Assembly (NCBI GenBank): GCA_035559235.1
Contig: DATMBM010000016.1
Span: forward strand, 28,431-92,430
Length of the DNA stretch: 64,000 nt
Direction: 5' to 3'
Origin: Minisyncoccota bacterium
Lineage (GTDB): Bacteria > Patescibacteriota > Minisyncoccia > Phycocordibacterales > UBA2100
Shown: piece by piece, positions 5,389 through 31,683 of the stretch
Numbering within the stretch: position 1 is the first letter of the stretch
How the letters are laid out: each line of letters starts with the position of its first letter
Notes under the pieces: model-generated
Database searches by the model: none
The model's input: the letters and a program-made list of their open reading frames with translations, nothing else
Told to the model about the DNA's origin: nothing
Translations under genes and position numbers: made by a program

Positions 5389-5462
5389 GCGGCAAGTATC
5401 TACTCAACCTTGTGAAGGACAAGTCGGGAGTGCACGAAAATGTGCATAACTGACAAATCAGA

Positions 5463-5502
5463 ATGTATCACTTTCTATACCATGGTATAGAAAGTGATAC
5501 AT
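5463..5502. promoter_or_regulatory. 40-bp perfect palindrome (atgtatcactttctatacc|atggtatagaaagtgatacat) in the promoter region of the hydrolase gene; candidate operator
   Basis: Read directly: both 20-nt arms are exact reverse complements, centred on CCATGG. It sits 75 bp upstream of the hydrolase start (5388) and 30 bp downstream of the regulator stop. A 20/24-matching half-site recurs at 6124-6147, overlapping the regulator start codon. Confidence 0.55.
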
Positions 5503-5531
5503 GGGTTCACATTCCACGATTCCTATCGCTC

Positions 5532-6128: not shown

Positions 6129-6147
6129 GGTATAGATAATAATACAT
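6124..6147. promoter_or_regulatory. half-site (accatggtatagataataatacat) matching the right arm of the 40-bp palindrome; candidate autoregulatory operator over the regulator start codon
   Basis: 20 of 24 positions match the palindrome arm accatggtatagaaagtgatacat. It overlaps the ATG of the regulator gene (6126-6128 on the minus strand). Confidence 0.4.
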
Positions 6148-6166
6148 GAAGAAAACGGTGTAATAC

Positions 6167-14741: not shown

Positions 14742-14945
14742 TTATTTCTGGATATACGGTAGAAGCCCCATGTGGCGGGCGCGTTTGATCGCCTCTTCCA
14801 CCATGCGCTGCTGCTTTGCCGTGAGGCCGCTCTTGCGGCGATCGATTACACGACCGTGCGGGTTGATGAAATTCTTCAAGAGGTCGACGTCTTTGTAGTC
14901 GACGTGCTGGATATCGTTTTGCGTCAAAATGTTGTTCGTTGCCAT
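14742..14945 (-). CDS. rpsR: 30S ribosomal protein S18
   Basis: 67 aa, ...KDVDLLKNFINPHGRVIDRRKSGLTAKQQRMVEEAIKRARHMGLLPY. Lies in the rpsF-ssb-rpsR arrangement. Confidence 0.93.
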   Translation of the reverse strand: MATNNILTQNDIQHVDYKDVDLLKNFINPHGRVIDRRKSGLTAKQQRMVEEAIKRARHMGLLPYIQK

Positions 14946-14955
14946 ACGTGTTTAT

Positions 14956-15396
14956 TTAGAATGGGATATCGTCAGGATTAATGTCGTCCTTCGGGTAGTC
15001 AATGCCGCCGGGGTTGCCGCCCCCTTGCTCTTGCGGCTCGTCTGCATCGCGCCGGCCACCTCCGCCGCCACCTGAGCGCGGGCCGAATTGCACGCGATCG
15101 GCGACGACTTCCGTGCGGTACATCTTCTGCCCTTCCTTTTCCCACGAGCGCGTCTGCAAGCGGCCTTCGACGAATACGCCGCTTCCCTTCTTCAGATACT
15201 GATTCACCGTATCCGCTTGGCGACCGAAGACGACGATGTTGTGGAAATCGGTCTGCTCCTGCTTCTTACCGTCGCGGTCGCGGAAGACGCGGTTCGTCGC
15301 GATCGAGAAGTTGACGACATTCATGCCGCTCGGCAGCGCGCGCAATTCAGGATCGCGCGTGAGGTTGCCGTAGAGAAGCACTTTGTTGAGGTACAT
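14956..15396 (-). CDS. ssb: single-stranded DNA-binding protein
   Basis: OB-fold N-terminus (MYLNKVLLYGNLTRDPELRALPSG...), Gly-rich linker, acidic C-terminal tip DDIPF. Confidence 0.93.
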   Translation of the reverse strand: MYLNKVLLYGNLTRDPELRALPSGMNVVNFSIATNRVFRDRDGKKQEQTDFHNIVVFGRQADTVNQYLKKGSGVFVEGRLQTRSWEKEGQKMYRTEVVADRVQFGPRSGGGGGGRRDADEPQEQGGGNPGGIDYPKDDINPDDIPF

Positions 15397-15400
15397 ACGA

Positions 15401-15919
15401 TTACTCGGCGGTTAGCGTTTCGAGCGCCTTTTCGAGATCTTCCTCGGAGACCGCGTCTTTCTCGTCCGCTTCTGGCGCCTTGCGCGGAGAGCTCTTGATC
15501 GTATCGCTGCGCTTCACTTCGCGAAGCTGCGGCGCCTTGAACTTGGCCCGCGTGTCTTCGCGCACCGTCTTGAAGACGATTGAGCGAAGGATCGACGCAT
15601 GCCCTTTCAGGAAATCCGTAAGTACTTTCGCGCTTTCAGTTGAGCCCTCGAATTTGATCCAGCCGAAGTATGCGCGGTCATATTCCGCGTATTTCTCGCC
15701 GTCGCGTTTGTTCATCGCGTAGGCGAGCTTCATCAAAGACGGCGCCCCTTCGGCGATGAAGGATCCTCCCAGCTGCTCGATTTCGGCGCGGATTTCTGCG
15801 ACGACTTTCTCGACATCCCCTTCGGAGACGGTCGGCACGACGTGATAGCCCGCTTCATAAATGCGGGTGACGACTTCAGTGTCTGCTGCTTCTTTTGCCA
15901 TGTCGGCGCACTGTATCAC
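15401..15919 (-). CDS. rpsF: 30S ribosomal protein S6 with an acidic C-terminal extension (start may be the Met at 15901)
   Basis: S6-like core (RIYEAGYHVVP...KFEGSTESAKVL) upstream of ssb-rpsR. Confidence 0.85.
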   Translation of the reverse strand: MIQCADMAKEAADTEVVTRIYEAGYHVVPTVSEGDVEKVVAEIRAEIEQLGGSFIAEGAPSLMKLAYAMNKRDGEKYAEYDRAYFGWIKFEGSTESAKVLTDFLKGHASILRSIVFKTVREDTRAKFKAPQLREVKRSDTIKSSPRKAPEADEKDAVSEEDLEKALETLTAE

Positions 15920-15945
15920 GAGCCCCCGAATATCGCAAGAAGTCC

Positions 15946-16776
15946 TTACTTTAAGCCGAAAAGTCGCGCTGCGTTCGCCAAAAGTTGCTCCCGAACCCCG
16001 TGTTCATCCTCCCCCCGGATGCGGGCAATCGCTCGTACAACCTCGATCACGTACGCCGGCTCGTTGCGTTTCCCCCGGTGCGGTACCGGTGTCACATACG
16101 GGGCGTCGGTTTCCGAAAGGAGCATGTCGAGCGGCGCATGTTTGACGATCTCGTCGTAGTCGTGCGTAAAGGTGAGGACGCCGGTAAATGAAAGTGTAAC
16201 ACCGAAATCGAGATACTTTTTCGCAGTATCCCATGAGCCCGCGAAAAAATGTGAATTCCCTTTTACTTTCGCGTGAGCTTTTAGGATATCGAGTGCGTCT
16301 TCGTACGCGTCATCAGAGCCTTGCGAGGCGCGGATGTGAAGCATGAGCGGCTTTTGCAGTGCGTTTGCAAGTTCGATCTGCTCAATGAACGCCTGTTCCT
16401 GAATTTTTTTCGAGTCGGCGTCGAGTCGATAGTAATCAAGTCCACACTCGCCGATTGCAATTACTTTTGGCGACGCCGCAAGCGCCCTATATTTTTCCAC
16501 GTCAAACACTTCACCGCGCGAGGTAAACGCCTTCCCGCCTTCGCCTAACTCTTTTTCGTCGTGGTACGACTTACCCGTATGAATCGGATGCAGTCCGATC
16601 GTCGCGTACACATCATCGTATTTTTCAGCTACTTCGACCGCGGATTTCGATGTATCGAATTGCGTGCCGACGATGTTCATCCCGACCCCAGCGTCGGCAG
16701 CGCGCCCGATAGCTGCGTCCATGTCGTCCTTGAATGCCGCAAAATTCACGTGCGTATGTGCGTCAAAAAAACGCAT
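15946..16776 (-). CDS. tatD: TatD-family metal-dependent hydrolase (DNase)
   Basis: MRFFDAHTHVNF... and conserved His/Asp/Glu metal ligands of the TatD family. Confidence 0.88.
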   Translation of the reverse strand: MRFFDAHTHVNFAAFKDDMDAAIGRAADAGVGMNIVGTQFDTSKSAVEVAEKYDDVYATIGLHPIHTGKSYHDEKELGEGGKAFTSRGEVFDVEKYRALAASPKVIAIGECGLDYYRLDADSKKIQEQAFIEQIELANALQKPLMLHIRASQGSDDAYEDALDILKAHAKVKGNSHFFAGSWDTAKKYLDFGVTLSFTGVLTFTHDYDEIVKHAPLDMLLSETDAPYVTPVPHRGKRNEPAYVIEVVRAIARIRGEDEHGVREQLLANAARLFGLK

Positions 16777-16779
16777 ATG

Positions 16780-18231
16780 CTACTCTTTTCTCGGAAACAA
16801 ATTGACCGGCTTTTTGTTGGCAAGGATCGCCTGCTTTATCGCGTTACTGGTCGCCGGGATGATCGGCTGCAAGAGCCGCGCAATGACGTAGAGGCGCGCG
16901 GTCATTGCGGCGATCATCGCCTTCCCCTTTGCGGGATCTTCTTTGACGATGGCAAACGGCTTCGTGTCGGTGAGTTCCTTGTCGAGCTCCCCGATGAGCT
17001 TCCATACATAATCACACGCCGCGTTGTAGTCGTACCGATCAAACGCGCTTGTGTACACGGCCGGAAAATCCTCTGGCACCGGCTCCGGCTTTTCTATTGG
17101 TTTCTCCAGATGTGCCTCCGCGAGCGTGAGGAGCCGTGAGGCGAGGTTGCCGAGGCCGTTGGCAAGGTCGGCATTGTAGCTTTCCTTGAATTTCGCAAGC
17201 GTAAAATCGCTGTCTTCAAACGGATGAATGTGCCGCGCGAGAAAGAGCCGCAGCGCATCGACGCCATACTCATCGACGATCGCGTACGGATCTATCACAT
17301 TGCCGAGCGATTTCGACATCTTCTTGCCGCCGGACGTGATGAAGCCGTGGATGACGATTTGACGCGTCGAGGGGAGGTCCGCCGAAATAAGCATCGCCTG
17401 CCACATGGCCGCTTGCTGGCGGACATTGTCTTTGCCGGCCATCTGCAATGCCTTTGGCGACGGAATGATGCCCCAGAACCGCTCGAACTCGGGCTCGTTT
17501 TCCGGCCAGCCGAGCGTCGAGATGTAGTTGATGAGCGCATCGAACCAGACGTACATAACCTGCGTGTCGTCGTCCGGCACGGGCACCCCCCACGGCATTT
17601 TTGATTTGAGTCTCGAAATCGAAAAATCTTCCAGCCCCTGTGCGACGAACGCCTTTATCTCATTGAAGCGGAAATCCGGCACGACAAGATCCGGCCGACG
17701 CGCATACAAATCCAAGAGTGGAATCTGGTATTTCGAGAACCGGAAGAAATAGTTCTCTTCGTTGATAAGCTCGATATCAAGCGTCGGGTGCAAGGAACAG
17801 CGTCCGTTGACGAGTTCCGAATCGGTTTTTTCCAATTCGCAGCCGACGCAGTATTTCACCTGGTAGTTTTTCTTGTAGATATCTCCCGCCGCCATGCAGC
17901 GAAGCCAAAAATATTGCGCGGCACGCTTGTGGTGCTCATCGGTCGTGCGAATGAAATGGAGGTCGGGAAACAGGTTGAGCTTCTCTTTCAGGTTGCGGAA
18001 TTTTGCGGCGTATTCGTCGACGTAGGCCTGCGGGTCTTTCTTCTCTTCCTGCGCCTTGCGGTAGATCTTGATGCCATGTTCATCGGTACCGGTATTGAAA
18101 AAAACCTCGTCGCCAAGAAGCGCGCGATAGCGCGCGATGATATCGGCCTGAACGATCTCAAGCGCGAAGCCGATGTGCGGATCGGCATTCACGTACGGGA
18201 GCGTCGTCGTTATATAAAAGGGTTTTCCCAT
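16780..18231 (-). CDS. metG: methionyl-tRNA synthetase (short form without a C-terminal tRNA-binding domain); likely start MGKPFYITTT
   Basis: HIGH-region context (YITTTLPYVNADPHIGFALE), zinc knuckle CVGCE..., KMSKS (KMSKSLGNVID). Confidence 0.93.
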   Translation of the reverse strand: MGKPFYITTTLPYVNADPHIGFALEIVQADIIARYRALLGDEVFFNTGTDEHGIKIYRKAQEEKKDPQAYVDEYAAKFRNLKEKLNLFPDLHFIRTTDEHHKRAAQYFWLRCMAAGDIYKKNYQVKYCVGCELEKTDSELVNGRCSLHPTLDIELINEENYFFRFSKYQIPLLDLYARRPDLVVPDFRFNEIKAFVAQGLEDFSISRLKSKMPWGVPVPDDDTQVMYVWFDALINYISTLGWPENEPEFERFWGIIPSPKALQMAGKDNVRQQAAMWQAMLISADLPSTRQIVIHGFITSGGKKMSKSLGNVIDPYAIVDEYGVDALRLFLARHIHPFEDSDFTLAKFKESYNADLANGLGNLASRLLTLAEAHLEKPIEKPEPVPEDFPAVYTSAFDRYDYNAACDYVWKLIGELDKELTDTKPFAIVKEDPAKGKAMIAAMTARLYVIARLLQPIIPATSNAIKQAILANKKPVNLFPRKE

Positions 18232-18250: not shown

Positions 18251-19303
18251 TTATGCATCACTCGCAAACGTCCGTTGCTCGCTCAAATCGCGGATGAGTT
18301 CCTGCAAGGTCGCGGCGACGGGAACGGAAAGGAGGATGCCCAAGAAGCCCGCCAGCTGCGCGCCGATAATGAGCCCCAAAATGACAAGGAGCGGCGGCAC
18401 GCCGACGACCTTCGTCACGACAAGCGGATAGATGAGGTGGTTTTCAAACTGCTGCAGGATGATATAGACGCCGATGACGACAAGTCCGAGGATGAGACCC
18501 CCGTCGGCAAATGCGATGAGAACGGCGGGCACAGCCGCGAGGGTCGGGCCGAACACGGGGATCAATTCGAAAAACGCGGCAAGCACGGCGAGAAGGAGCG
18601 CGTGCTTGATGCCGAGGATCGAGAGCGCGAGATAGACGAGAATGCCGATGATGACCCCGAGAAGCACTTGCCCCTGCATCCACAGGCCGATTTTCCGCTT
18701 CGAGCGCTCCCACAAATCCAGGACGTAGGCGCGGTACCGTTGCGGCGTGACCACGCGCAGGAAATCGTCGACGCCGGTCTCAGACATCGTGAAATAGAAC
18801 GAAAGGACGAGTATGAGGATGAACGAGAAGACGCCGCCGAAGAGCGTTGCGGCCGCGCCGGCGGCGCTTCCAAACGCGCCGCTCACCCGTAAGCTGTCGC
18901 GTGCCTGCGCGATCAAATCAGCCGGAGAGATGTTCGTCGGTGACGGCAGGCCGAGAATGTCGGCGTATTCGTTGTACGCGCCGAGCCGGTTGAGGAGATC
19001 GAGGTAACTTGGAAGCGCAGAAATGAAGCCCGTGAGTTCGTTCAAGACCGACGGCACGAAGACGTAAAAGAGGCCGCCGATGGAACTGAGCACGATGACG
19101 TAGAGAAGAATAACCGCAAGGATGCGTGGCATCCGCCAGCGCATAAAGGCACGCACCGCCGGATCCATCGCGGAGGCGATTACGACCGCCGTAAGCACGA
19201 TCAACACCAAATCGCGCAGGTACCAGACGAGCCACGCGCCCGCGAGGACGACCAGAGTCTTTACGATCGTGCCCGTCGTAATGGAGAATGTCTGCTCAGG
19301 CAT
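18251..19303 (-). CDS. AI-2E family transporter (PerM/YhhT-like permease)
   Basis: 350-aa polytopic membrane protein with the typical AI-2E family topology and motifs. Confidence 0.85.
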   Translation of the reverse strand: MPEQTFSITTGTIVKTLVVLAGAWLVWYLRDLVLIVLTAVVIASAMDPAVRAFMRWRMPRILAVILLYVIVLSSIGGLFYVFVPSVLNELTGFISALPSYLDLLNRLGAYNEYADILGLPSPTNISPADLIAQARDSLRVSGAFGSAAGAAATLFGGVFSFILILVLSFYFTMSETGVDDFLRVVTPQRYRAYVLDLWERSKRKIGLWMQGQVLLGVIIGILVYLALSILGIKHALLLAVLAAFFELIPVFGPTLAAVPAVLIAFADGGLILGLVVIGVYIILQQFENHLIYPLVVTKVVGVPPLLVILGLIIGAQLAGFLGILLSVPVAATLQELIRDLSEQRTFASDA

Positions 19304-19325
19304 ACTCCTATCGTATCATGTGAGA

Positions 19326-19408
19326 CGGGGTTGGGGCCCCGTCGCAAGATCGGAGCGCGTCGGCGCGAGGCGAGGTCGCGCACATTTTCAGCAGAAAATG
19401 ATGCGTGA
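19326..19408 (+). repeat. copy A of an ~83-bp structured repeat (ggggttggggccccg...gtcgcgcacattttcagcagaaaatgatgcgtgac), intergenic between the AI-2E transporter gene and glyQS
   Basis: ~90% identical to 23064-23146 in the same orientation. Contains a 7-bp hairpin cattttc-agca-gaaaatg. In copy B the stem is catcttc/gaagatg, a compensatory pair change. Confidence 0.7.
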
Positions 19409-19411
19409 CGA

Positions 19412-20725
19412 CTAACAGATGTATGAAGCGATGTCGGCTATTGGCACGCGTTCCTGCTCGCCCGAATCACGATCGCGCACGGTGACAATGTCTTTTTTGT
19501 CGTCACCGCCTTCACCGAGCGTGTCAAAATCAATGGTGATGCAGAACGGCGTCCCGATTTCGTCTTGCCGGCGATAGCGCTTCCCGATATTGCCGTTGTC
19601 GTCCCACATGATCTGCGGGATGTCTTTCTTGAGCATCTCGTAGACCTCGCGCGCTTTCGCGACCAAGTCCGGCTTGTTCTTAAGGAGCGGAAACACGGCG
19701 GCTTTTACCGGCGCAATCTCTTTCGGGAATGCGAGGTAGGTACGCGCCTCGCCGCCCATTTCATCCTCCTTGTACGCCGAGGCGAGAACCGCGAGGATAG
19801 TACGATCGACGCCAAACGACGGTTCGATGACGTGCGGCACGTATTTCTCGCCGCTTTCTTCATCCATAATCGACAGATCGACACCGGACATCCCCGCATG
19901 CGCCGTCAGGTCGAAATCAGTGCGGTACGCGAGGCCGTACAACTCTTTAACGCCAAAGGGATAGTCGAACTCAAAATCGATCGTTCGCTTGGAATAATGT
20001 GCGCGCTCGGTATCAGGTACTTCCAGCTCCGTTACCCTTTTGCCGTCGATGCCGACGCGCTCGATCCATGCATGCATGGCGTTGCGGAATTCCTCGAATT
20101 TCGCTTCCCAATCGCGCGGGTGCACGAAGTATTCGATTTCCATCTGCTCGAATTCACGCGAGCGGAAGACGAAATCGCGCGGTGCGATCTCGTTGCGGAA
20201 GGCTTTGCCGATTTGTCCGAGCCCAAACGGCATTTTCGGGTGTAGTGAATCGACAACGTTTTTGAAATTAACGAACATTCCTCCGGCCGTCTCCGGACGC
20301 AGATACGAAATTGATGATGCGTCTTCTGTCGCGCCGATGTGCGTCTTGAACATCATATTAAATTGCCGTGCCTCGCCGAGTTTTCCGCCGCATTCGGGGC
20401 ATGTTGTTTTGTCCTCCAGGTGATCTTCGCGAAATCGTCTCTTGCACTTTGTGCATTCCACCAACGGATCGGAAAAACCGCTCACGTGGCCCGAGGCCTC
20501 CCACACCTTCGGATGCATCAGGATGGCGGCGTCCATGCCGTACATATCATCGCGCTCCTGCACGAACATTCGCCACCAGAGGTTCTTGATGTTGTTCTTC
20601 AATTCGACGCCCATCGGGCCGTAGTCCCACGTGCCGGCGAGGCCGCCGTAAATTTCCGAGCCCTGGTAGATAAAACCGCGCCGCTTGGCGAGAGAGACAA
20701 TCTTTTCCATCGTTGCCTCGGACAT
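19412..20725 (-). CDS. glyQS: glycyl-tRNA synthetase, class II alpha2 type
   Basis: MEKIVSLAKRRGFIYQGSEIYGGLAGTWDYGPMGVELKNNI... is diagnostic of dimeric GlyRS. The likely start is the internal Met at 20725. Confidence 0.92.
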   Translation of the reverse strand: MSEATMEKIVSLAKRRGFIYQGSEIYGGLAGTWDYGPMGVELKNNIKNLWWRMFVQERDDMYGMDAAILMHPKVWEASGHVSGFSDPLVECTKCKRRFREDHLEDKTTCPECGGKLGEARQFNMMFKTHIGATEDASSISYLRPETAGGMFVNFKNVVDSLHPKMPFGLGQIGKAFRNEIAPRDFVFRSREFEQMEIEYFVHPRDWEAKFEEFRNAMHAWIERVGIDGKRVTELEVPDTERAHYSKRTIDFEFDYPFGVKELYGLAYRTDFDLTAHAGMSGVDLSIMDEESGEKYVPHVIEPSFGVDRTILAVLASAYKEDEMGGEARTYLAFPKEIAPVKAAVFPLLKNKPDLVAKAREVYEMLKKDIPQIMWDDNGNIGKRYRRQDEIGTPFCITIDFDTLGEGGDDKKDIVTVRDRDSGEQERVPIADIASYIC

Positions 20726-20890: not shown

Positions 20891-22924
20891 CTATTTCACA
20901 ACTGTCGCGTTTGCGGGCGTGAATCCTGGATCGGTGTTGATGTTCGTCGTGACGTCGGTGGCGCTGCGCGAGACCGTCTCCCCCGTCGCTTCGTCGATGC
21001 CGGTAAGCTGAATTGCGCGAATGAGGACCGGCTGCTGGCCAATTTGCGATGTGGAGGGCGTGATCGCGATATTGATGCCGAGCTGGCGCACCTGTATGCC
21101 CTCGGTCCCGGTGCCCGGCTCAATCGTCCCCAACCGCCACGTGAATGTGCCGTCGTTTTGGTTGAACGAGATGTCCGCGCTTGCGGGCGCAAAGATACCG
21201 GTCCAACGCACGTACGGCGGCAAAGCCGCCTTCACGACGGCATTCGTGATGCGGTTCGTGGTGTTGGTGACGCTCAGAACGATGCCGTAGGTCGTTTCTT
21301 CGCCGGCTTTCGGAGGGATAGGGCCGCTTGAGGAGAGTGGGTTCGAATAGTAGAGGCCCTGCGCAATGAGCTGCAGGTCGCTTGCGACACGGATCGTCTG
21401 CGAAGCGGTGGACTGCAGGGTCTCGGGCACATCGCGCTCCGCGATGCGCCGCCCGGCCGCCTGGACGCTTATCGTGACTTTCGGATCGCGCAGGCCGCGC
21501 AGTTCGTCGTTTGACGGCACTGAGAATGAAAAACTGACGGTCCCGCGCGCGCCCGGTGCGAGCGATGCGAGGGAACCATTCGTCGTCGACTTGTCCCACA
21601 AGACGACACGGTCGCTCGAGCGATAGAAGCCGTCGTTCGTGCGCACCGTCGTGCCGTCGATTTCAATGCCGCTCAACTGCGCAACGATGACCGCGTCGAT
21701 AATCGGCGTCGAGAGGTTGTTCTGCCACTGCACTGCGACGTTCACCGTCTCTCCCGGACCTGCAATCGCGCCGCTCGCCCCCTGGTCCTTGTTCACGTCG
21801 ATGGTGAGGCCGAGGAATGGATTCGAGACGGTGACGTGATGCGCGTAATCGGCAAGAACGGCATCAATTGCCGTTTTTTCCTCCGAGGTGCGCGTGCCGG
21901 CCGTAAAGCGAATGACGCGCTCATCTCCGCTTTCGCCCAGGACGCTGCCGCGCACCAAGACGCTCTTCTGCTGCCCCGGCGCAAGGTCGCCGAGCGCCCA
22001 CAAGTTCCGCGATCCCGCAACGGGCTGCGGGTCGGCGTGTGAAAGCGTAAAGCCGAACGGGAAATTGATATTGAGGAGCACATCCTTTACCGGCGCCTCC
22101 GCATTCGACGCGACAGTCGCCGTAAATTCAACCGGCTGCCCTGAAATTGTTTCGCTATTGCCTTCAATGGAGAGCGAGATCGGTGACGAGGAGAACATGA
22201 TCTGGTAGTCGGTCGAGGAGACGAAAATGGCGCTCGAGCCCGCAAGGCGATATTCGAGTTCAACCTTGACGGTCGCGCGCTCGCCTTCCTGCCCGGCAAA
22301 AACCGCCGAAATCGTGCCGCGCCGCTGTCCACCCGGCTCAATCGTGCCGAGCGATTCGCGCAAGTCGGGCAAGCTCGTCGTAAGATCATTGACCGAACGC
22401 GTACCCTTCGGAAATGTGACGACCAGGTCGGCAAGTTCAAGCGGCACGCGGTTGCGGTTTACGATTGCGATCTGCAATTTCGTGGGCGTGCCGCTTTGCA
22501 CCTGCAGCGGCCCTGAGACGACGATGTCGATATTGCCGGGAGAGGCGGGAACGCTCCCGCCGCCGAGAAAAAAGTAATACGCCAGAAAACCTCCCGCCCC
22601 CACTCCGAAGGCAACCCCGGCATAGATGAGCCACTGCACGAGCACGCGCATCACGTGCAACTTCTTTGGTGCGGCAATCGTGCCGGTAAACGGGCTGTCG
22701 TCGGGGTGCTGCCAGTCCTCGCCGATTGGCGGCGTCCCAGCCTCAAGTTCATGGCGCGGCTTCTCCTTGATGTTCGGTTCCAGCGCGCGGCTGTACATCG
22801 CGCGCCGCAGACGTTCTATCTTTTCCTTCTCATGGTCGCTCTCCACCTGCCCGTCTCGACTCGCGTCACGTGATGCGGGCGGCTCGACGCCCTCAAAAGG
22901 AACATGAGGTTTTTCCTCAGGCAT
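20891..22924 (-). CDS. large membrane-anchored surface protein with repeated Ig-like / DUF11-type beta domains (677 aa)
   Basis: Charged cytoplasmic N-terminus, one TM helix (VLVQWLIYAGVAFGVGAGGFLAYYFFL), then ~550 aa of beta-rich repeats. Confidence 0.65.
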   Translation of the reverse strand: MPEEKPHVPFEGVEPPASRDASRDGQVESDHEKEKIERLRRAMYSRALEPNIKEKPRHELEAGTPPIGEDWQHPDDSPFTGTIAAPKKLHVMRVLVQWLIYAGVAFGVGAGGFLAYYFFLGGGSVPASPGNIDIVVSGPLQVQSGTPTKLQIAIVNRNRVPLELADLVVTFPKGTRSVNDLTTSLPDLRESLGTIEPGGQRRGTISAVFAGQEGERATVKVELEYRLAGSSAIFVSSTDYQIMFSSSPISLSIEGNSETISGQPVEFTATVASNAEAPVKDVLLNINFPFGFTLSHADPQPVAGSRNLWALGDLAPGQQKSVLVRGSVLGESGDERVIRFTAGTRTSEEKTAIDAVLADYAHHVTVSNPFLGLTIDVNKDQGASGAIAGPGETVNVAVQWQNNLSTPIIDAVIVAQLSGIEIDGTTVRTNDGFYRSSDRVVLWDKSTTNGSLASLAPGARGTVSFSFSVPSNDELRGLRDPKVTISVQAAGRRIAERDVPETLQSTASQTIRVASDLQLIAQGLYYSNPLSSSGPIPPKAGEETTYGIVLSVTNTTNRITNAVVKAALPPYVRWTGIFAPASADISFNQNDGTFTWRLGTIEPGTGTEGIQVRQLGINIAITPSTSQIGQQPVLIRAIQLTGIDEATGETVSRSATDVTTNINTDPGFTPANATVVK

Positions 22925-22949
22925 TCGCGCATTTTACCACAGCCGTGAA

Positions 22950-23609
22950 CTAGAGATGCGTCTCTGAAATGGCCTTATTCACCGATGAAAGCAATTTTTG
23001 TCGGCCCGCCTCGACTTCTGAGAGTTCCGGCAGCCCGTATGCCGCGTGCGTGAAGAGTGAGGTGGGGTTGGGTCCCCGACGCAAGGCCGGAGCGCGACGG
23101 TGCGAGGCGGGGTCGCGCACATCTTCAGCAGAAGATGATGCGTGACCGTTGCCGAGCGCGTCTGCCGAAAGATAACCCAGCGCGTAAAGGATGCGCGCGA
23201 CGCAAAGCAGTTCGATCGTCGCCTGCGTCTCGCGCGGCGCTTCGAGAAGCGTGCGCCGTGCCTCAACAAGCGCCCGATATAGATATTCGTTTTTCTCCTC
23301 GCCCGCGATCAGGCGGTCCGCCAAATTCGCAATGCGCGCGAACACGGCCGCTGCCGCTTCCGGCATACTTGTTTCCGAAAGCGCCATCGCACCGACGACG
23401 CGCCAGCCGCTCACCCCGCGCACCAGCGCGACATTTGCTTGCGCGTAATTCTGGAGGGCATAGCGCATGCGTGACGATTCACGCCGCACCGCAGAGGCAC
23501 GCGCCCACACCAAGCCGAACGCTTCCGTGTAGAGCGCGAAAACGCGGTCGGCCTCTCCCCGCTCGTAACTGCGCAAGACAAGGGCTTCTGTTTGGTATTT
23601 CTGGTACAT
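22950..23609 (-). CDS. recO: DNA repair protein RecO (219 aa), carrying an in-frame copy of the ~83-bp repeat in its C-terminal region
   Basis: N-terminus MYQKYQTEALVLRSYERGEADRVFALYTEAFGLVWARASAVRR matches the RecO OB-fold domain. Repeat copy B (23064-23146) lies inside the ORF and is translated as ...GNGHASSSAEDVRDPASHRRAPALRRGPNPTS.... Confidence 0.8.
   Translation of the reverse strand: MYQKYQTEALVLRSYERGEADRVFALYTEAFGLVWARASAVRRESSRMRYALQNYAQANVALVRGVSGWRVVGAMALSETSMPEAAAAVFARIANLADRLIAGEEKNEYLYRALVEARRTLLEAPRETQATIELLCVARILYALGYLSADALGNGHASSSAEDVRDPASHRRAPALRRGPNPTSLFTHAAYGLPELSEVEAGRQKLLSSVNKAISETHL
23064..23146 (+). repeat. copy B of the ~83-bp structured repeat, embedded in-frame in recO
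   Basis: Aligned by eye to 19326-19408: ~74/83 identical. Hairpin preserved by compensatory T>C / A>G changes. Confidence 0.7.
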
Positions 23610-23611
23610 GG

Positions 23612-26600
23612 TTATTCGCGCGCGAGCTTCAATGCGACGTCGTAGTCGCCGATTTTCTGGCGCGTACCATGCACTGTACCAAAACCGATGGTCGCATGCG
23701 TCGTCTCGGCGATCGTGGTCTTGTTCCGCTCGATCAGTTCTTGTCCCTTCGGCGCATCAATCGTGAGCGTTACCGTATCGCGCGGATCGAGCCCCGCGTC
23801 CTTGCGAGCGCCCTGTATCGCGCGGATCAGCTCGCGTACGAAACCCTCTTCTTTCAGCTCTGCGGTGATTTCAGTATCCAATTGAATGTCTTCTGCGATA
23901 TCAGCCTGCTCGACTCCTTTTACATTCACCTCATCGCGAATGACTTCAAGCAGTTCGTCGGAGAGCCCCGCATGCTTGATGACGAGTTTTTTGAGCGGTT
24001 GGCGCACTTTGATGCCCGCCTTGTCGCGCGCCTCGAGCGCTTTTGAGACGATCGCGCGGACTTTCGCCATGTCCTCGAGGATTAGGTCTTGCTTGTGACC
24101 GCCAAAAAGTCTCGAGAAAAAACCAGTGCTGTGCGGCTCCGGCCACGACTCAAGGTGCACGCTTCCACCGCCTTCAATGCCGCGGTAGATGGAATCTGCG
24201 AGAAAAGGAGCAATCGGCGCCATAAGCTTCGCGAGCGTAAGCAGGACTTCCCGCTGCGTCGCAAGTGAATGGTGCTTGTCGTGCCATTCTCCCTTGACGC
24301 GCTCGCGCGAGCGACGCACGTACCACGTCGAATAATCGTCAACAAATTCACGGAGCGCGCGGCACGCACGCGGCGTGTCGTAGGCGTCCATCGCCTCGGT
24401 CACGTCCGCCGTCACTTCGTCGAGCCGCGCGAAGATCCACCGGTCAAGGACATGTTCGCTCGCGCGCGGCTTTGTGATGCCATCGTACTCCCGCTGGTAC
24501 AAATCAAAGAATTTGAACGTATTCCACAAAATGCCGATCACGCGATTGTGCGCGTCGCGCACGTCCTCGTCGCGGAACCGCAAATCTTCCGCCTGCATCA
24601 CTGGAGACGACATCAGATACAGGCGCAGTGCGTCGGAGCCGTAGCGGTCGACCAATTCCAAAGGGTCGGTGTAATTGCGCTTGGATTTCGAGATCTTCTC
24701 GCCATCCGCCGCAAGAATGGTGCCGGTTGAGACGACGGTGTGGAATGCAAGACGGTTGAACAGCAGGACTCCCATCGCGTGCATGTAGTAAAACCACGTG
24801 CGAGTCTGCGCAATGTATTCAGCAATGAAATCCCCGGGCGCGCGCTTTTCGAATTCGTCTTGGTTTTCAAACGGATAGTGGTATTCCGCGAAGGGCATCG
24901 AGCCGCTCTCCACCCAGCAGTCGACGACTTCCGGAATGCGGCGATATTCCTCACCGTCATCGCCAATAAGGACTAAATCGTCAATGTACGGCCGGTGCAG
25001 GTCGAGTTCGAATTCGGCATTCCACGGCATCGGGGCGAAATCGAATGCTTCCACCTTCCCCTTCTCCGGATACTCTGCGCTTCTCCGCATAACAGTTTCC
25101 TCCTTTGATAGGCCGCGCGCAGCTGATTTCAAAAGCCACAATGGCGTTCCGTGCGAGACGATCAAGATGTGTTCACCGTGGTGCGTTGCTTCCAGCTCAT
25201 GCATGAAGGCCATCATCCGCTTCTTGATGTCGGTGTAGGTTTCTCCGCCTTTTGGCGCTTTCGTAAAGCGATCCATCTTGTCCGGAAACGCCGCATGATA
25301 CTCCTCGAGTGTTTTGCCGCTGTATTCGCCGAACTGCGACTCGCCGATTCTCCCATCGACGACGACGCGGTCGTGCGGAATGCCGAGCGCTTCGGCAATG
25401 ATCTGAGCCGTCTCGCGCGTCCGCTTGAACGGTGACGCATATACGTATCCGATGTTCTTCTCGCGCAACTTTTCAGCCGCTTCGCGCACCTCTGCCTTGC
25501 CTTCTTCGGTAAGATGGATGTCCGCATCGACATCAGACGACACGATATCTTGCACATTGTTGTCGGCGCGTCCGTGGCGCATCACGAAATAGGTATTGCC
25601 GCTCTTTTTGACGCGCTGCCGTATCTCCTCAACCGATCCCACCACCATCACCTTTCCCTCTTTCGATTTCCAGATTGGCAAAGGCGAGGCCCAGAACCGA
25701 TTGCGCGAAATCGTCCAGTCCGGCGCATTCTCGACGATGTTGTAGAAACGGCCGTGCTTCAGATGGTCTGGCACCCAATTCACCTTCTCATTTTCGGAGA
25801 GCATCTTCGCTTTCACCTTCTGGATATTGATGAACCACGACGAGACGGCGTTGTAGATAAGGGGTGTGCCGCAGCGGTAGCAGTGCGGGTAGGAGTGCGT
25901 GTGATTTTCTCGTTTAAACAGGAGGCCGCGCTCCTGCAAATCGCGCTTGATGTCTTTCTCAGCGTCTTTTATGTATTTTCCGCGGATAAATTCCGGTACC
26001 TGATCGTTGTACGTGCCGTTCGGGTTCAGGAGCTGCACCATCGGAAGCCCTTCTTTTTGTCCGAGCACAAAGTCATCCTCGCCATACATCACCGCCGTGT
26101 GCACAATGCCGGTTCCCTCGTCGGTCGAGACGAATTCGGCCGCGTACACTTTGTATGACTTTTCTAATTTCAGCGCTGGCACCTCAAAGAGTGGCTCGTA
26201 TTCAAGACCAATCAGATTTTTGCCCGAAAATTCGTATCCTGAATTAGGATCACTGAGACCGAGCGCTGGCATCCGCTCTTTTGCGACCAAATAATATCTT
26301 CCCGGTTCGTATTGAACAGCACGATAACTTATGTCTGCACCCACAGCTAATGCCACGTTTCCAGGCAAGGTCCACGGAGTTGTTGTCCACGCGAGGAGAT
26401 GTACGTCCTGCCCAATACCGAGTTCAAATAATTTTGGAGTGGGTCTGACCTTGAACTTCACCGTCACCGCTTCCTCGGTGATATCTTCGTATGTATTGTC
26501 CTGAGCGATTTCCGCTTTCGCAAGCGGCGTCTCGCAATGCGGGCAATACATGAGGACTTTGCGCCCCTCGTAGAGCAAATCTTTCTCCCACAATTGCTTG

Positions 26601-27085
26601 AGTGCCCACCAGACAGACTCGATGTACGTGTTGTCCATCGTCTTGTACGAGTTGTCATAATCAACCCAGCGACCGATCCGATCGATATACTTTTTCCATT
26701 CGTCCACGTATTTCAAGACCATCGACCGCGCCTTCTCGTTGAAAGTCGCGATGCCGATGTCGAGGATATCTTTTTTTGTCTTAAGTCCTAGTTCTTTCTC
26801 GACGAGCGATTCGATCGGGAGTCCGTGCGTGTCCCATCCCCAACGACGTCGGACACGATAGCCGCGCATGGTCTTGTAGCGCGGAATGACGTCCTTAATT
26901 ATCGAAGATAATAAGGAGCCATGGTGAGGAAGCCCTGTCGCAAACGGCGGACCATCGTAAAAAACGAACTCTCCCTTTGGTGACTTCTTTTCTAGACTCC
27001 GTTCGAATGTCTTGTTTTCCCGCCAAAAAGCGAGTATGTCCTCCTCGCGCTTCGCCGTTTCGCTTTTGCCGCCCTGTTCAGCCAT
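23612..27085 (-). CDS. ileS: isoleucyl-tRNA synthetase (type 2-like) carrying a ~200-aa histidine-phosphatase (PGAM-like) domain inserted in the catalytic core
   Basis: HIGH region PPFATGLPHHG; WTISRNRFWASPLPIW; CWVESGSMPF; KMSKS-equivalent KISKSKRN; C-terminal anticodon-binding region. Between ...IWKSKEGKVMVVGSVEEIRQRV and ...EEYRRIPEVVDCWVESG lies VMRHGRADNN...SPFKRTRETA...ILIVSHGTPLW, the RHG...R...H...SHG histidine-phosphatase signature. The likely start is MAEQGG at 27085; the ORF extends to 27217. Confidence 0.93.
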   Translation of the reverse strand: MAEQGGKSETAKREEDILAFWRENKTFERSLEKKSPKGEFVFYDGPPFATGLPHHGSLLSSIIKDVIPRYKTMRGYRVRRRWGWDTHGLPIESLVEKELGLKTKKDILDIGIATFNEKARSMVLKYVDEWKKYIDRIGRWVDYDNSYKTMDNTYIESVWWALKQLWEKDLLYEGRKVLMYCPHCETPLAKAEIAQDNTYEDITEEAVTVKFKVRPTPKLFELGIGQDVHLLAWTTTPWTLPGNVALAVGADISYRAVQYEPGRYYLVAKERMPALGLSDPNSGYEFSGKNLIGLEYEPLFEVPALKLEKSYKVYAAEFVSTDEGTGIVHTAVMYGEDDFVLGQKEGLPMVQLLNPNGTYNDQVPEFIRGKYIKDAEKDIKRDLQERGLLFKRENHTHSYPHCYRCGTPLIYNAVSSWFINIQKVKAKMLSENEKVNWVPDHLKHGRFYNIVENAPDWTISRNRFWASPLPIWKSKEGKVMVVGSVEEIRQRVKKSGNTYFVMRHGRADNNVQDIVSSDVDADIHLTEEGKAEVREAAEKLREKNIGYVYASPFKRTRETAQIIAEALGIPHDRVVVDGRIGESQFGEYSGKTLEEYHAAFPDKMDRFTKAPKGGETYTDIKKRMMAFMHELEATHHGEHILIVSHGTPLWLLKSAARGLSKEETVMRRSAEYPEKGKVEAFDFAPMPWNAEFELDLHRPYIDDLVLIGDDGEEYRRIPEVVDCWVESGSMPFAEYHYPFENQDEFEKRAPGDFIAEYIAQTRTWFYYMHAMGVLLFNRLAFHTVVSTGTILAADGEKISKSKRNYTDPLELVDRYGSDALRLYLMSSPVMQAEDLRFRDEDVRDAHNRVIGILWNTFKFFDLYQREYDGITKPRASEHVLDRWIFARLDEVTADVTEAMDAYDTPRACRALREFVDDYSTWYVRRSRERVKGEWHDKHHSLATQREVLLTLAKLMAPIAPFLADSIYRGIEGGGSVHLESWPEPHSTGFFSRLFGGHKQDLILEDMAKVRAIVSKALEARDKAGIKVRQPLKKLVIKHAGLSDELLEVIRDEVNVKGVEQADIAEDIQLDTEITAELKEEGFVRELIRAIQGARKDAGLDPRDTVTLTIDAPKGQELIERNKTTIAETTHATIGFGTVHGTRQKIGDYDVALKLARE

Positions 27086-27108
27086 GTCGCGTATCGTAGC
27101 AAAGGGCG

Positions 27109-28128
27109 TCACTCTGCGCGAGACGTCTTCAGCCGTTTCTCCTTTTCGTGCCGCTCGATGGCGAGCCGGATGAGTGTGTCGATGAGTTTTGGGTAGGGCA
27201 TCCCCCACTCCTCCCACATCTTCGGATACATACTAATCGAGGTGAAGCCGGGGATGGTGTTGATTTCATTGACGAGCACTTTACCGAGCTTGGTGACGAA
27301 GAAATCAACTCGAGCCATCCCCTCGCAGCAGAGCGTCTTAAACACGAGCACGGCCATCCTTTGAATTTCCTTTACCCTTTTCTTCGGCAAATGTGCCGGA
27401 ATTTGAGGGATCATCGCCTCCGGGTCGAGGTATTTTGCCTCGTACGAATAAAACTCGCTGTTGAGTACCAATTCCCCCGGCACCGACGCAACCGGCCTCT
27501 CATTGCCAAGAACCGAACATTCGATCTCGCGGCCGTCGACAAACTCCTCGACGAGGATTTTCGTATCGTATTCGAATGCATGCCTCAGCGCCGCATTAAA
27601 TTCTTTTTCATTCCGTACTTTCGAGACACCGACCGACGAGCCGAGATTCGCAGGTTTTACGAACATCGGCAATCCTAATTTCTTCTTCGCGTCGGCAAAA
27701 CGAATCTTTTCGTGCGAATGAACAACGGCAAATCTCGCAATCGGAATTCCCGCATCGCGCAGAAGCCGCTTCATTACATCCTTGTCCATCCCGACTGCAG
27801 AACCAAGAACCCCTGCGCCTACAAACGGTACGTCCGCCAATTTCAAAAGCCCCTGCACCGTGCCGTCTTCGCCAAATGGTCCATGCAAGACTGGGAAGAC
27901 CACATCGAAGGTGTGCAAAAATCCAAAAATATCTTCGACACGCCTACCTGTTTCCAATAGTGATTCTTTCGCATACTTCCACACGCCCTTTGTATCAATG
28001 CACACCGTTCCAATGTCGTATTTCCTCCGATCGAGCGCCCTCACGACATTCCGTGCAGAAAGAATCGAAACTTCGTGCTCCGCCGACTTTCCGCCAAACA
28101 GTACCGCAATCCGTAGTTTCCGCTTCAT
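27109..28128 (-). CDS. ddl: D-alanine--D-alanine ligase
   Basis: MKRKLRIAVLFGGKSAEHEVSILSA... with an ATP-grasp fold; typical Ddl length of 339 aa. Confidence 0.92.
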   Translation of the reverse strand: MKRKLRIAVLFGGKSAEHEVSILSARNVVRALDRRKYDIGTVCIDTKGVWKYAKESLLETGRRVEDIFGFLHTFDVVFPVLHGPFGEDGTVQGLLKLADVPFVGAGVLGSAVGMDKDVMKRLLRDAGIPIARFAVVHSHEKIRFADAKKKLGLPMFVKPANLGSSVGVSKVRNEKEFNAALRHAFEYDTKILVEEFVDGREIECSVLGNERPVASVPGELVLNSEFYSYEAKYLDPEAMIPQIPAHLPKKRVKEIQRMAVLVFKTLCCEGMARVDFFVTKLGKVLVNEINTIPGFTSISMYPKMWEEWGMPYPKLIDTLIRLAIERHEKEKRLKTSRAE

Positions 28129-31205: not shown

Positions 31206-31658
31206 TTACCGTGGGCCCTGCTGTGCTGCTTGTTCGAAGTACATTAAAAACGCTTTCGCCTGCGCAATTTGCGCGCTCCAACGTCCAACTGCCGATTGCA
31301 GTTCCTTTTCCTCCTCGTCGGTACGCATGTTTCGGTAATCAATCGGCGCAAGCTTGGCGCATATGTCATTAATTTCCTCCAACTTGGTTCGTATCTCGAC
31401 AGCACTGGGCATGTCTTCGATCCGCACATCGCGTGTCGCGGGGTTCTCCAAAATTGCGTTCAGTTGCGTGATGCAATTGTTTGATTGATTCCACAAACTG
31501 CGAAAATTATCATTTTTGAGCTTCTCGACGCGCTGCTGCGCCCTATCTGGATCAAAGCGAAGGGCCTTCAGATTTGCAGCCTTCGTGAACGAATATATGT
31601 CTGCTCCGCGCGAGCGGTCTGGGGTATTGTCGTTATTGTCAGGAAAATCCTCAGCCAT
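31206..31658 (-). CDS. hypothetical acidic protein (150 aa)
   Basis: ORF between tmk and rplK with balanced, protein-like composition and a helical prediction. No family recognised. Confidence 0.45.
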   Translation of the reverse strand: MAEDFPDNNDNTPDRSRGADIYSFTKAANLKALRFDPDRAQQRVEKLKNDNFRSLWNQSNNCITQLNAILENPATRDVRIEDMPSAVEIRTKLEEINDICAKLAPIDYRNMRTDEEEKELQSAVGRWSAQIAQAKAFLMYFEQAAQQGPR

Positions 31659-31683
31659 GCGCGCATTTTAACACGCGCAACGG

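What the first reader, a model, noticed from the sequence alone, without database searches (positions are those of the whole stretch)
23064..23146. The same repeat element is embedded in-frame inside recO
Copy B lies wholly within the 22950..23609 recO reading frame and is translated as ...GNGHASSSAEDVRDPASHRRAPALRRGPNPTS..., a low-complexity, basic/Pro-rich stretch in the C-terminal third of RecO. The frame stays open, so the insertion is tolerated, which is MITE-in-CDS or intein-free 'expansion segment' behaviour. It may alter or delete part of RecO's C-terminal zinc/RecR-interaction region.
Basis: partly seen in the sequence, partly recalled or inferred. Interest (0 to 1): 0.5.

Follow-up and report, generated by a model that had tools for sequence, protein, structure and literature searches.

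The report
Structured mobile repeat inside recO
A 90-base folded DNA/RNA element, conserved across a group of tiny uncultured (CPR) bacteria, sits in-frame but backwards inside the DNA-repair gene recO, where it adds a floppy 29-residue loop; the element matches no described RNA or transposon family.

Summary
A 90-nt repeat (23057-23146, not 23064-23146) lies inside recO (22950..23609, minus strand). A second copy (19320-19409) fills the glyS/AI-2E-permease spacer; the two are 79/90 identical with sharp edges.

It is an insertion. About 190-aa RecO orthologues, including the closest syntenic relative, lack it. Eight of the 120 best homologues carry it at the same codon, and each has closer relatives without it.

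The nucleic acid is under selection, not the peptide. Among recO alleles with the insert, flanking DNA is 61% identical (third codon positions 37%), but the element is 89% (87%). Compensatory changes keep a three-helix fold whose G·U pairs lie on the strand antisense to recO.

The same core occurs in other Paceibacteria next to tRNA genes, in a 23S-5S spacer and at gene ends, usually flanked by direct repeats of the target (9-75 nt). There are no terminal inverted repeats, no transposase nearby and no Rfam match. I found only 1-2 loci per genome.

AlphaFold puts the insert in a disordered loop of an otherwise confident RecO fold. This RecO family has no zinc-finger cysteines to lose.

Best reading: a low-copy, structure-constrained insertion element, comparable to Rickettsia palindromic elements. 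How it moves is unknown.

The parts
23057..23146 (+). Copy B of the 90-nt element, inside recO. The folded strand is the window's + strand, antisense to recO. Read on the minus strand it encodes residues about 155-184 of RecO.
   Evidence: repeat and boundaries; covariance model, 90.9 bits, E 6e-19; insertion relative to orthologues.
23058..23083 (+). P1 hairpin of copy B (GAGGUGGGG...CCCCGAC plus outer UG/CA pairs). This helix varies or is absent in family members outside the 90-nt subfamily.
   Evidence: Consensus fold of the 9 full-length copies; single-sequence fold.
23086..23108 (+). P2a (GCC/GGC), the conserved GGA/GA internal loop, and the P2 hairpin of copy B.
   Evidence: all 5 P2 pairs and 1 of 3 P2a pairs show changes on both sides. 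P2 length and sequence vary between genomes.
23112..23146 (+). P3 of copy B: a 15-bp hairpin with an AGCA loop and a bulged A 8 nt from the 3' end. It is the most conserved part of the family.
   Evidence: Compensatory pairs in L019, L022, L025, L011b, L008b and in copy B itself (U-A to C-G at 23123/23134).
22950..23609 (-). recO (219 aa): N-terminal OB fold plus helical domain, with no zinc-finger cysteines. It hosts copy B.
   Evidence: RecO_N; pLDDT 86, RecO fold; orthologues.
19320..19409 (+). Copy A of the element. It fills the spacer between the glyS stop codon (19412-19414, minus strand) and the AI-2E permease start codon (19301-19303, minus strand), antisense to both. P2a is slightly degraded (A·C, U·G).
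   Evidence: (83.8 bits). In the syntenic relative L017 the same spacer is 24 nt and empty.

Best explanation
The recO segment is a genuine insertion of one member of an undescribed family of small, strand-specifically folded elements found in Paceibacteria/Kaiserbacteria (CPR bacteria). Selection maintains a nucleic-acid fold on the window's + strand, antisense to recO. The fold consists of an optional P1 hairpin, a short P2a helix with a GGA/GA internal loop, a variable P2 hairpin, a GGGG linker, and a near-invariant 15-bp P3 hairpin with an AGCA loop and a bulged A. The encoded peptide is a by-product.

The element enters DNA by a process that usually leaves direct repeats of the target (9-75 nt). 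It survives only where the host gene stays intact. That happens beside tRNA, rRNA and protein-gene ends, where the duplicated end rescues the gene. It also happens in recO, because 90 nt equals 30 stop-free codons in that frame and falls in a surface loop of the helical domain. RecO therefore most likely still works, carrying a 29-residue disordered loop.

Shown: the insertion, the fold with covariation, the strand, nucleotide-level constraint, the flanking target repeats, and the loop location. Inferred: that the fold is read as a transcribed small RNA or as single-stranded DNA by machinery encoded elsewhere, which copies or moves it. Also inferred: the patchy recO distribution reflects an old insertion lost many times through its flanking repeats, re-entry at the homologous site, or both.
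For: Insertion:
- Orthologues are 185-192 aa and lack the segment. The closest syntenic relative, L017, lacks both window copies.

Selection on nucleotides:
- Among six recO genes with the insert, flanks are 61% identical (third positions 37%), but the element is 89% (87%).
- L001 and L018 elements are 96% identical, while their flanking recO DNA is 66% identical (third codon positions 40%); the six codons next to the element differ at nearly every third position.
- L019 changes the peptide from SFSAENV to SSAAADA through 4 compensatory pairs in P3.

Fold:
- 95.4% of cells are paired and 10 of 23 pairs change on both sides. No shuffle out of 500 reaches this, and slid controls give 20-49%.
- Fold z-scores are -5.0 and -3.3.

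Strand:
- 24 G·U cells in the core plus 4 in P1, against 4 A·C cells.
- The + strand folds 7-9 kcal/mol better than the minus strand.

Family outside recO:
- Copies occur in tRNA flanks, a 23S-5S spacer, after rplL, after a PBP2 gene and in the 5' end of a GH1 gene.

Target repeats:
- Exact repeats of 18-20 nt (L010, L015, L016, L025) (sequences).
- Diverged repeats of 44-62 nt, with 0 of 300 shuffles as good (L008, L012), and about 46 nt in L022.
- 9 and 33 nt in the recO genes of L018 and L001.

Tolerance:
- The insert has pLDDT below 60 and the rest above 90, with a RecO fold.
Against: - No transposase, integrase or reverse transcriptase lies near any copy.
- Copy number looks low: 2 in 64 kb, and one matching locus per genome in a scan of 185,579 genomes. 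That scan used a strict pattern.
- There are no terminal inverted repeats, and no common target motif appears in the flanks printed.
- No transcription evidence is available. No promoter-like site was found next to the window copies.
- The two window copies have no detectable flanking repeat.
- The long flanking repeats differ almost only at synonymous sites (pS 0.92-0.99, pN 0.19-0.33). Simple target duplication followed by decay does not predict this.
- Occupation of the same recO codon in lineages that are not each other's nearest relatives requires either many precise losses or a homing mechanism. Neither is demonstrated.
Confidence: 0.55

Rival explanations
1. The element is an ordinary host small-RNA gene family of 1-2 copies per genome, normally co-transcribed with tRNA, rRNA or ribosomal-protein operons. 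The recO copy is then an sRNA gene nested antisense in recO, and mobility is incidental. This overlaps with the best explanation. The difference is whether the host or the element benefits.
For: - Deep conservation with variable, covarying P1 and P2 helices and conserved junction nucleotides, as in functional RNAs.
- Low copy number.
- Sense orientation within stable-RNA or ribosomal-protein operons in L006, L007, L009, L010, L011b, L015, L016 and L025.
- The tRNA-Tyr-linked position recurs in three genomes (L007, L016, L025).
- G·U pairs show that one strand is the folded one.
Against: - No match to any of 4227 Rfam families, even at E<=10.
- No promoter-like site at the window copies; whether the antisense copies in L008 and L012 have one was not tested.
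- Flanking target repeats and presence/absence among close relatives show repeated insertion and loss, which is unusual for a housekeeping RNA gene.
- Most relatives lack the recO copy.
Confidence: 0.3
2. The element is what remains of, or a miniature of, an integrative element that recombines at the ends of genes and carries a replacement gene end. Tyrosine-recombinase islands at tRNA 3' ends do this, as does phage 21/e14 at icd. The flanking repeats would then be att-type repeats rather than target-site duplications.
For: - 19-20-nt exact repeats run from the tRNA T-loop to the 3' end in L015, L016 and L025.
- In L008 and L012 the last 19-22 codons plus the stop codon are duplicated. The two versions differ mainly at synonymous sites, so both appear to have evolved as coding sequence.
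- In L008 the gene-contiguous copy has an atypical GC3 (32% against 58% for the gene body).
Against: - The whole insert is only 90-150 nt and contains no recombinase.
- One element family would need a different att sequence for every target (tRNA-Ser, tRNA-Tyr, rplL, PBP2, GH1, recO).
- The element's orientation relative to the repeats is not fixed.
- RNA-like covariation and G·U asymmetry are not expected of a double-stranded att arm.
Confidence: 0.15
3. The element is a retroposed small RNA, analogous to a SINE. A structured RNA transcribed with tRNA genes would be copied by a resident reverse transcriptase and inserted by target-primed synthesis. That would give a constant 3' end, a variable 5' part and variable-length target duplications.
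For: - The 3' boundary is sharp and constant (GUGAC), while the 5' parts vary.
- Target repeats range from 9 to 75 nt.
- The folded strand equals the sense strand in stable-RNA operons.
- These bacteria do encode reverse transcriptases. L004 has a bona fide diversity-generating retroelement (a reverse-transcriptase system that rewrites a variable repeat), with 21 of 21 mismatches at template adenines, in the same glyS/permease spacer that holds copy A.
Against: - No reverse transcriptase lies next to any copy, and there is no 3' tail.
- A published survey found no group II introns in Patescibacteria (PMC13011429).
- The L004 retroelement region has no similarity to the element.
- No bacterial precedent is known to me.
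Confidence: 0.1
4. The segment is a protein-level expansion segment of RecO, selected for what the peptide does. The intergenic copy would then derive from recO.
For: The peptide GHASFSAENVRDPASRRRAPALRRGPTP looks conserved among the eight RecO proteins with the insert.
Against: - Third codon positions are as conserved as first and second positions (87% against 37% in the flanks).
- Changes are compensatory for base pairs, not for residues.
- The segment is predicted to be disordered.
- Most orthologues lack it.
- The same core is non-coding in more than 15 other places.
Confidence: 0.03

Closest known systems
Rickettsia palindromic elements (RPE; Ogata et al. 2000, cited from memory; mentioned in the MITE review PMC10969869)
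   Same: Both are roughly 100-nt repeats that can form hairpins. Both insert in-frame into essential protein-coding genes as well as non-coding DNA. The ORF stays open, the peptide sits on the protein surface, and no transposase is known.
   Different: RPEs occur in tens of copies per genome and are confined to Rickettsia. This family is low-copy. It is conserved across divergent CPR lineages with compensatory base-pair changes. It shows a clear folded strand and is flanked by long, variable target repeats. Sequence relatedness to RPEs was not tested.
REP/BIME elements and MITEs such as Correia, ERIC, RUP
   Same: All are small, non-coding, structure-forming repeats found at gene ends and inside operons, presumably mobilised by a protein encoded elsewhere.
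   Different: This element has no terminal inverted repeats and no fixed 2-10-bp target duplication. No related insertion sequence or REP-associated transposase gene was seen, and copy number is far lower. The fold is three separate helices, not one palindrome.
Integrative elements that carry a replacement gene end (tRNA-targeting islands; phage 21/e14 in icd; from memory)
   Same: Direct repeats of the 3' end of a tRNA or protein gene flank the insert. The displaced copy looks like a diverged but once-coding version.
   Different: Here the insert is 90-150 nt with no integrase. Targets are many and unrelated, and orientation relative to the repeats varies.
SINE-type retroposons and group IIC introns
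   Same: SINE-like features: a small structured RNA-like unit, a constant 3' end and variable-length target duplications. Group IIC-like features: the element sits next to terminator-like hairpins, 90-nt copies begin GUGAG and end AC, and P3 has a bulged A 8 nt from the 3' end.
   Different: There is no domain I-V, no intron-family match in Rfam, no reverse transcriptase nearby and no 3' tail. These resemblances may be coincidence.

Membership tests
Rickettsia palindromic elements (RPE-like selfish repeats in coding sequence) | Repeat of about 100 nt able to fold into hairpins | tested here: met
   90 nt with three helices, MFE -45.4/-43.8 kcal/mol, z -5.0/-3.3. Covariation supports the fold.
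Rickettsia palindromic elements (RPE-like selfish repeats in coding sequence) | In-frame insertion in a protein-coding gene with the ORF kept and the peptide at the protein surface | tested here: met
   Net +29 codons relative to orthologues. The insert has pLDDT below 60 between helices, and the rest of RecO is above 90.
Rickettsia palindromic elements (RPE-like selfish repeats in coding sequence) | Many dispersed copies per genome | tested here: not met
   2 copies in 64 kb. One matching locus per genome in 8 genomes out of 185,579 scanned, although the pattern was strict.
Rickettsia palindromic elements (RPE-like selfish repeats in coding sequence) | Sequence homology to RPE-1 to RPE-8 | not tested
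   No RPE sequences were available in the tools. Homology is unlikely given the unrelated phylum.
MITE | Terminal inverted repeats | tested here: not met
   The 5' end is GTGAGAC and the 3' end is GCGTGAC, which are not complementary.
MITE | Short target-site duplication of fixed length | tested here: not met
   Flanking repeats are 0, 9, 18-20, 33, 44-62 and about 46 nt.
MITE | Parent insertion sequence with the same ends, or a transposase nearby | tested here: inconclusive
   None was seen among window ORFs by inspection or among genes next to other copies. Whole genomes were not available.
Known structured RNA family (Rfam 15) | Covariance-model match | tested here: not met
   Only tRNAs and rRNAs reach the gathering score. 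At E<=10 on 321 nt the only match is a 12.8-bit chance hit to isrK.
Diversity-generating retroelement TR/VR pair | Mismatches between the two repeats confined to adenines of one copy, with a reverse transcriptase adjacent | tested here: not met
   The 11 differences between A and B are A>G 4, C>T 2, T>A 2, T>C 2, G>T 1. No reverse transcriptase is nearby. By contrast the true retroelement in L004 gives 21 of 21 at adenines.
Integrative element with att repeats | Direct repeats of the target gene end flanking the insert | tested here: met
   L015, L016, L025 and L010 have exact repeats. L008 and L012 have diverged ones.
Integrative element with att repeats | Recombinase gene inside the insert | tested here: not met
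   The inserts are 90-150 nt, with no room for a gene.
Group II intron | Domains I-VI with a catalytic domain V and an intron-family match | tested here: not met
   Only 90 nt, and no intron family in the Rfam scans. Only superficial 5' GUGAG, bulged-A and 3' AC resemblance.

The most novel reading that the evidence does not exclude
The element may be a new kind of mobile unit in CPR bacteria: a roughly 65-90-nt structured RNA or single-stranded DNA. It would travel with, or create, a copy of the adjacent gene end and re-enter the homologous site in other genomes. Possible routes are homing by flank homology, Campbell-type cassette integration, or copying by a resident reverse transcriptase. 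This would explain several findings together: the same recO codon and the same tRNA T-loop position occupied in separate lineages; the 8-9-nt segment complementary to the start of the downstream repeat; and flanking repeats that differ only at synonymous sites.
Probability: 0.2. Interest if true: 0.85.

Novelty: new variant of a known kind. Interest (0 to 1): 0.6.

Why it matters
If correct, this is a previously unrecognised structured element in the very small genomes of CPR bacteria. It is conserved by base-pair covariation across lineages whose synonymous sites are saturated, yet it behaves as an insertion that comes and goes.

It shows that an essential repair gene can carry a nucleic-acid element on its antisense strand for long periods. 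It also gives a concrete, testable case of recurrent occupation of the same site (a recO codon, and tRNA T-loop position 55/56) with no known enzyme.

On the practical side, it explains the odd 29-residue low-complexity loop in some annotated RecO proteins. It also supplies a covariance model for annotation.

Tried and rejected
- **Rfam.** Gathering-score scans of the window and 8 loci, and an E<=10 scan of copy A, found nothing.
- **Viral contigs.** No match.
- **Protein search with element translations.** All open frames of the element were concatenated and searched. Only 5 weak hits came back, mostly spurious small ORFs over intergenic copies. The method is too insensitive for 30-aa segments, but two hits gave new loci.
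- **Diversity-generating retroelement TR/VR pair.** Rejected, because the mismatches are not adenine-specific.
- **Target duplication or crossover at the shared TCACGCA heptamer in recO.** Rejected. The spacing is 92 nt, which would break the frame and remove TALF.
- **Replication-strand rule as in IS200/IS605.** Rejected. The window copies lie on the strand with negative GC skew, opposite to dnaA-proximal co-directional genes, whereas copies in rRNA/tRNA operons are sense.
- **Own promoter or terminator.** None detected near the window copies.
- **Resemblances to a K-turn, SRP RNA, box C/D RNA, a self-cleaving ribozyme or group II domain V/VI.** Examined by eye. None fits, and none is supported by Rfam.
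- **Sequence search of PDB with the RecO profile.** No hit. A fold search was needed instead.
- **Which copy of the L008 duplicated gene end is native.** Left unresolved. The copy contiguous with the gene is closer to the nearest relative at the protein level (17/19 against 14/19). The displaced copy has the gene's normal GC3 (63% against 32%). The orthologous spacers in L026 and L027 hold no element.
- **Short inserts in some RecO proteins.** The 8-aa inserts R[ST]PTGET[LF][ED] (P0054, P0089, P0100) and LPAGQAG (P0065) sit at the same RecO site and may be deletion remnants. Nucleotide similarity to the element is weak, so this stays a suggestion.

Full report
**1. The observation**

The window holds one strong repeat pair, 19320-19409 and 23057-23146. 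The two copies are 79/90 identical. An alignment with 60-nt flanks shows similarity that starts abruptly at GTGAG and ends at GCGTGAC.

Copy B lies inside ORF 22950..23609 on the minus strand (219 aa). This ORF matches RecO_N. Its AlphaFold model (mean pLDDT 86) matches solved RecO structures from E. coli, Deinococcus, Thermus and Campylobacter.

Copy A fills the spacer between the glyS stop codon (19412-19414) and the start of an AI-2E-family permease (19303). It is antisense to both genes.

A covariance model built later finds no further copy in the 64 kb.

**2. It is an insertion**

Of the 120 best RecO homologues, almost all are 185-192 aa and read ...LGY.S.EALG|TALFTH.... Eight proteins (P0001-5, P0007, P0012, P0051) carry 29-41 extra residues at exactly this point.

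The closest syntenic relative is L017, with the gene order ileS-recO-CLIPPER-glyS-permease. Its recO site is empty and its glyS-permease spacer is 24 nt and empty.

At the nucleotide level the window allele gains a net 87 nt. L018 gains 99 nt, which is 90 nt plus a diverged 9-nt duplication of CTCGGNACN. L001 gains about 123 nt, which is 90 nt plus a 33-nt duplication encoding LG..S.EALG.

**3. What is conserved is the nucleic acid, on the strand antisense to recO**

Among six recO genes with the insert, the flanking coding DNA is 61% identical and its third codon positions are 37% identical, which is saturated. The 90-nt element is 89% identical, and 87% identical at recO third positions.

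The element copies in recO genes of other species (L002, L004) are 93% identical to the window's intergenic copy A. The RecO proteins are only about 60% identical.

I aligned eighteen copies of the 64-nt core. The proposed structure pairs 95.4% of cells. Ten of 23 pairs change on both sides. None of 500 shuffles reaches the observed values, and slid controls pair only 20-49%.

RNAalifold independently recovers P1, P2a/P2 and P3 on the nine full-length copies.

- The recO copy in L019 replaces four P3 pairs by other pairs. This turns the peptide SFSAENV into SSAAADA.
- L001 and L018 swap two P2 pairs, changing RR to PRQ.
- Further compensated P3 variants appear in L008b, L011b, L022 and L025.

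G·U pairs (24 cells in the core, 4 in P1) greatly outnumber A·C cells (4). This includes a G·U kept in 15 of 18 sequences. The + strand also folds 7-9 kcal/mol better than the minus strand. The folded strand is therefore the window's + strand, antisense to recO.

One caveat applies. Part of the 5' arm of P3 was in my search patterns, so its invariance is partly by construction. The recO copies and L022/L025 were found through proteins, not through that pattern.

**4. The family outside recO**

An exact-pattern scan of one genome per species found the core in eight genomes (Kaiserbacteria, Minisyncoccia/Paceibacterota and MAGs labelled Saccharibacteria). A metagenome scan added four contigs. 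Viral contigs gave none. None of these copies is in recO.

The contexts are:
- downstream of tRNA-Tyr (L007, L016, L025), tRNA-Ser (L015) and tRNA-Arg (L011b);
- upstream of tRNA-Glu (L006, two tandem copies);
- beside tRNA-Pro in antisense orientation (L005, L011a);
- the 23S-5S spacer (L009);
- just after rplL (L010);
- a few nucleotides after the stop codon of a PBP2 gene (L008) and of a membrane-protein gene (L012);
- in the first 13 codons of a GH1 gene (L022, two tandem copies, seen in three samples)
.

P1 and P2 differ completely in sequence and length between genomes. The junctions and P3 are nearly invariant.

No Rfam family matches, even at E<=10. Four literature searches found no description of such an element.

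**5. Signs of insertion**

Most copies are flanked by direct repeats of the target.
- Exact repeats: 18 nt, the rplL end including its stop codon (L010); 20 nt, tRNA-Ser from T-loop C56 to the 3' end (L015); and 19 nt (tRNA-Tyr in L016 and in L025). In L016 and L025 the repeat matches each species' own, different T-stem.
- Diverged repeats, each beaten by 0 of 300 shuffles: 62 nt (L008), 44 nt and up to about 75 nt (L012), and about 46 nt (L022). Repeats of 21 nt with mismatches (L005) and 13 nt exact (L011a) are copies of the tRNA-Pro end.

In each case the duplication leaves one intact copy of the gene end. This explains why the element is found at gene ends. The two window copies show no significant repeat.

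In L015, L016, L025 and L010, an 8-9-nt stretch just 5' of the core is complementary to the first bases of the downstream repeat. This forms a closing helix, P0.

**6. Unexplained features**

The long repeats differ almost only at synonymous sites (pS 0.92-0.99, pN 0.19-0.33), even though the displaced copy lies beyond a stop codon. Neutral decay of a relic cannot produce this. Either one copy was imported with the element from another lineage, or the relic is frozen by selection.

In L008 the evidence conflicts. The copy contiguous with the gene resembles the nearest relative's protein (17/19 against 14/19). The displaced copy has the gene's normal GC3. Relatives L026 and L027 have no element there.

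**7. History at recO**

In a neighbour-joining tree of 120 RecO proteins with the insert masked, the eight proteins with the insert fall in at least five places.

Each has much closer relatives without the insert. P0002 is 82% identical to P0013, which lacks the insert, but 70% to the best protein that has it. P0004 is 80% identical to P0091, which also lacks it.

Four proteins carry 7-8-aa inserts at the same site that may be deletion remnants.

Two histories fit:
- One old insertion followed by many losses. Flanking repeats and strong hairpins are known to promote precise excision.
- Repeated entry at the homologous site.

One observation favours long residence under strong purifying selection. 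The L001 and L018 elements are 96% identical, yet the codons next to them are saturated at synonymous sites. I cannot decide the number of gains from a single-gene tree.

**8. Consequence for RecO**

The insert (about residues 155-184) has pLDDT below 60 and no secondary structure. It lies between helices 149-153 and 184-187. All other segments are above about 90.

The family has one cysteine and no zinc-finger motif, whether or not the insert is present. Nothing of that kind is lost.

All eight lineages with the insert keep the recO frame open across it, seven of them in a full-length ORF (P0051 is cut at a contig end). RecO therefore probably still functions.

**9. Interpretation**

The data fit a low-copy, structure-constrained insertion element. 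Its closest described analogues are the Rickettsia palindromic elements, which also insert in-frame into genes.

It differs from them, and from REP elements and MITEs, in several ways:
- no terminal inverted repeats;
- long, variable target repeats;
- low copy number;
- covariation-level conservation across divergent lineages.

It may equally be a genuine small-RNA gene that moves occasionally.

A reverse-transcriptase route is conceivable. L004 carries a true diversity-generating retroelement in the very spacer that holds copy A in the window. Nothing links the two directly.

The mechanism of movement, the trans-acting partner and the benefit, if any, remain unknown.

Noticed in passing
window 23612-27217 (minus strand), ileS: The isoleucyl-tRNA synthetase is 1201 aa. 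It carries a complete histidine-phosphatase domain (His_Phos_1, residues 544-707, E 1e-39) inserted within its catalytic domain. IleRS of relatives (955-1009 aa in L002, L004, L019, L020) has no such match on record.
   Followed up: partly
L004 14298-16836: A bona fide diversity-generating retroelement lies between glyS and the AI-2E permease, the same spacer that holds copy A in the window. Variable repeat 14820-14949 (3' end of a 224-aa ORF), template repeat 15283-15412, reverse transcriptase 15847-16836. All 21 mismatches fall at template adenines.
   Followed up: yes
window 22914-22936 and 31648-31670 (minus strand): A 23-nt motif, TAAAATGCGCGNATGSCTGAGGA, occurs twice (0 expected by chance). 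In both cases a -10-like TAAAAT sits 7 nt before the ATG start codon of a gene (the 677-aa CLIPPER-like gene and a 150-aa gene). This suggests a shared promoter producing leaderless mRNAs.
   Followed up: partly
window 5458-5503 and 6103-6148: Two related 46-nt palindromes, the first perfect (…ATGTATCACTTTCTATACCATGGTATAGAAAGTGATACAT…), flank ORF 5494-6123. They could be operator-like sites or inverted repeats of a small mobile unit.
   Followed up: no
L006 2363-2640 (minus strand): Upstream of the real tRNA-Glu lies a second tRNA-Glu-like sequence. It is broken by several GC-rich hairpin insertions in the D region, the anticodon loop and the T-loop. The T-loop insertion contains a copy of the element. 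The whole 260-nt unit is tandemly duplicated.
   Followed up: partly
RecO homologues P0054, P0089, P0100, P0065 (L020 5001-5597, L021 1073-1672): Short 7-8-aa inserts (R[ST]PTGET[LF][ED]; LPAGQAG) sit at exactly the recO codon where the element inserts. They may be footprints of imprecise deletion. Related proteins without any insert have E or D where others have G.
   Followed up: partly
L009 974-1453 and 2677-3180: LAGLIDADG homing-endonuclease ORFs lie inside the 23S rRNA gene and in the 1.5-kb stretch between the 23S and 5S genes, which also holds a copy of the element.
   Followed up: no
window 61598-64000: dnaN and dnaA lie at the right end of the window, and GC skew is negative on the + strand throughout. 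The window therefore starts near the replication origin, and its minus-strand genes are co-directional with replication.
   Followed up: partly
L022 10001-10260: The GH1 glycosidase gene now appears to start at an ATG inside the 3' end of the second element copy (AUGCGUGAC...). The original start codon with 13 codons is left upstream, fused to the element as a 70-aa ORF.
   Followed up: partly
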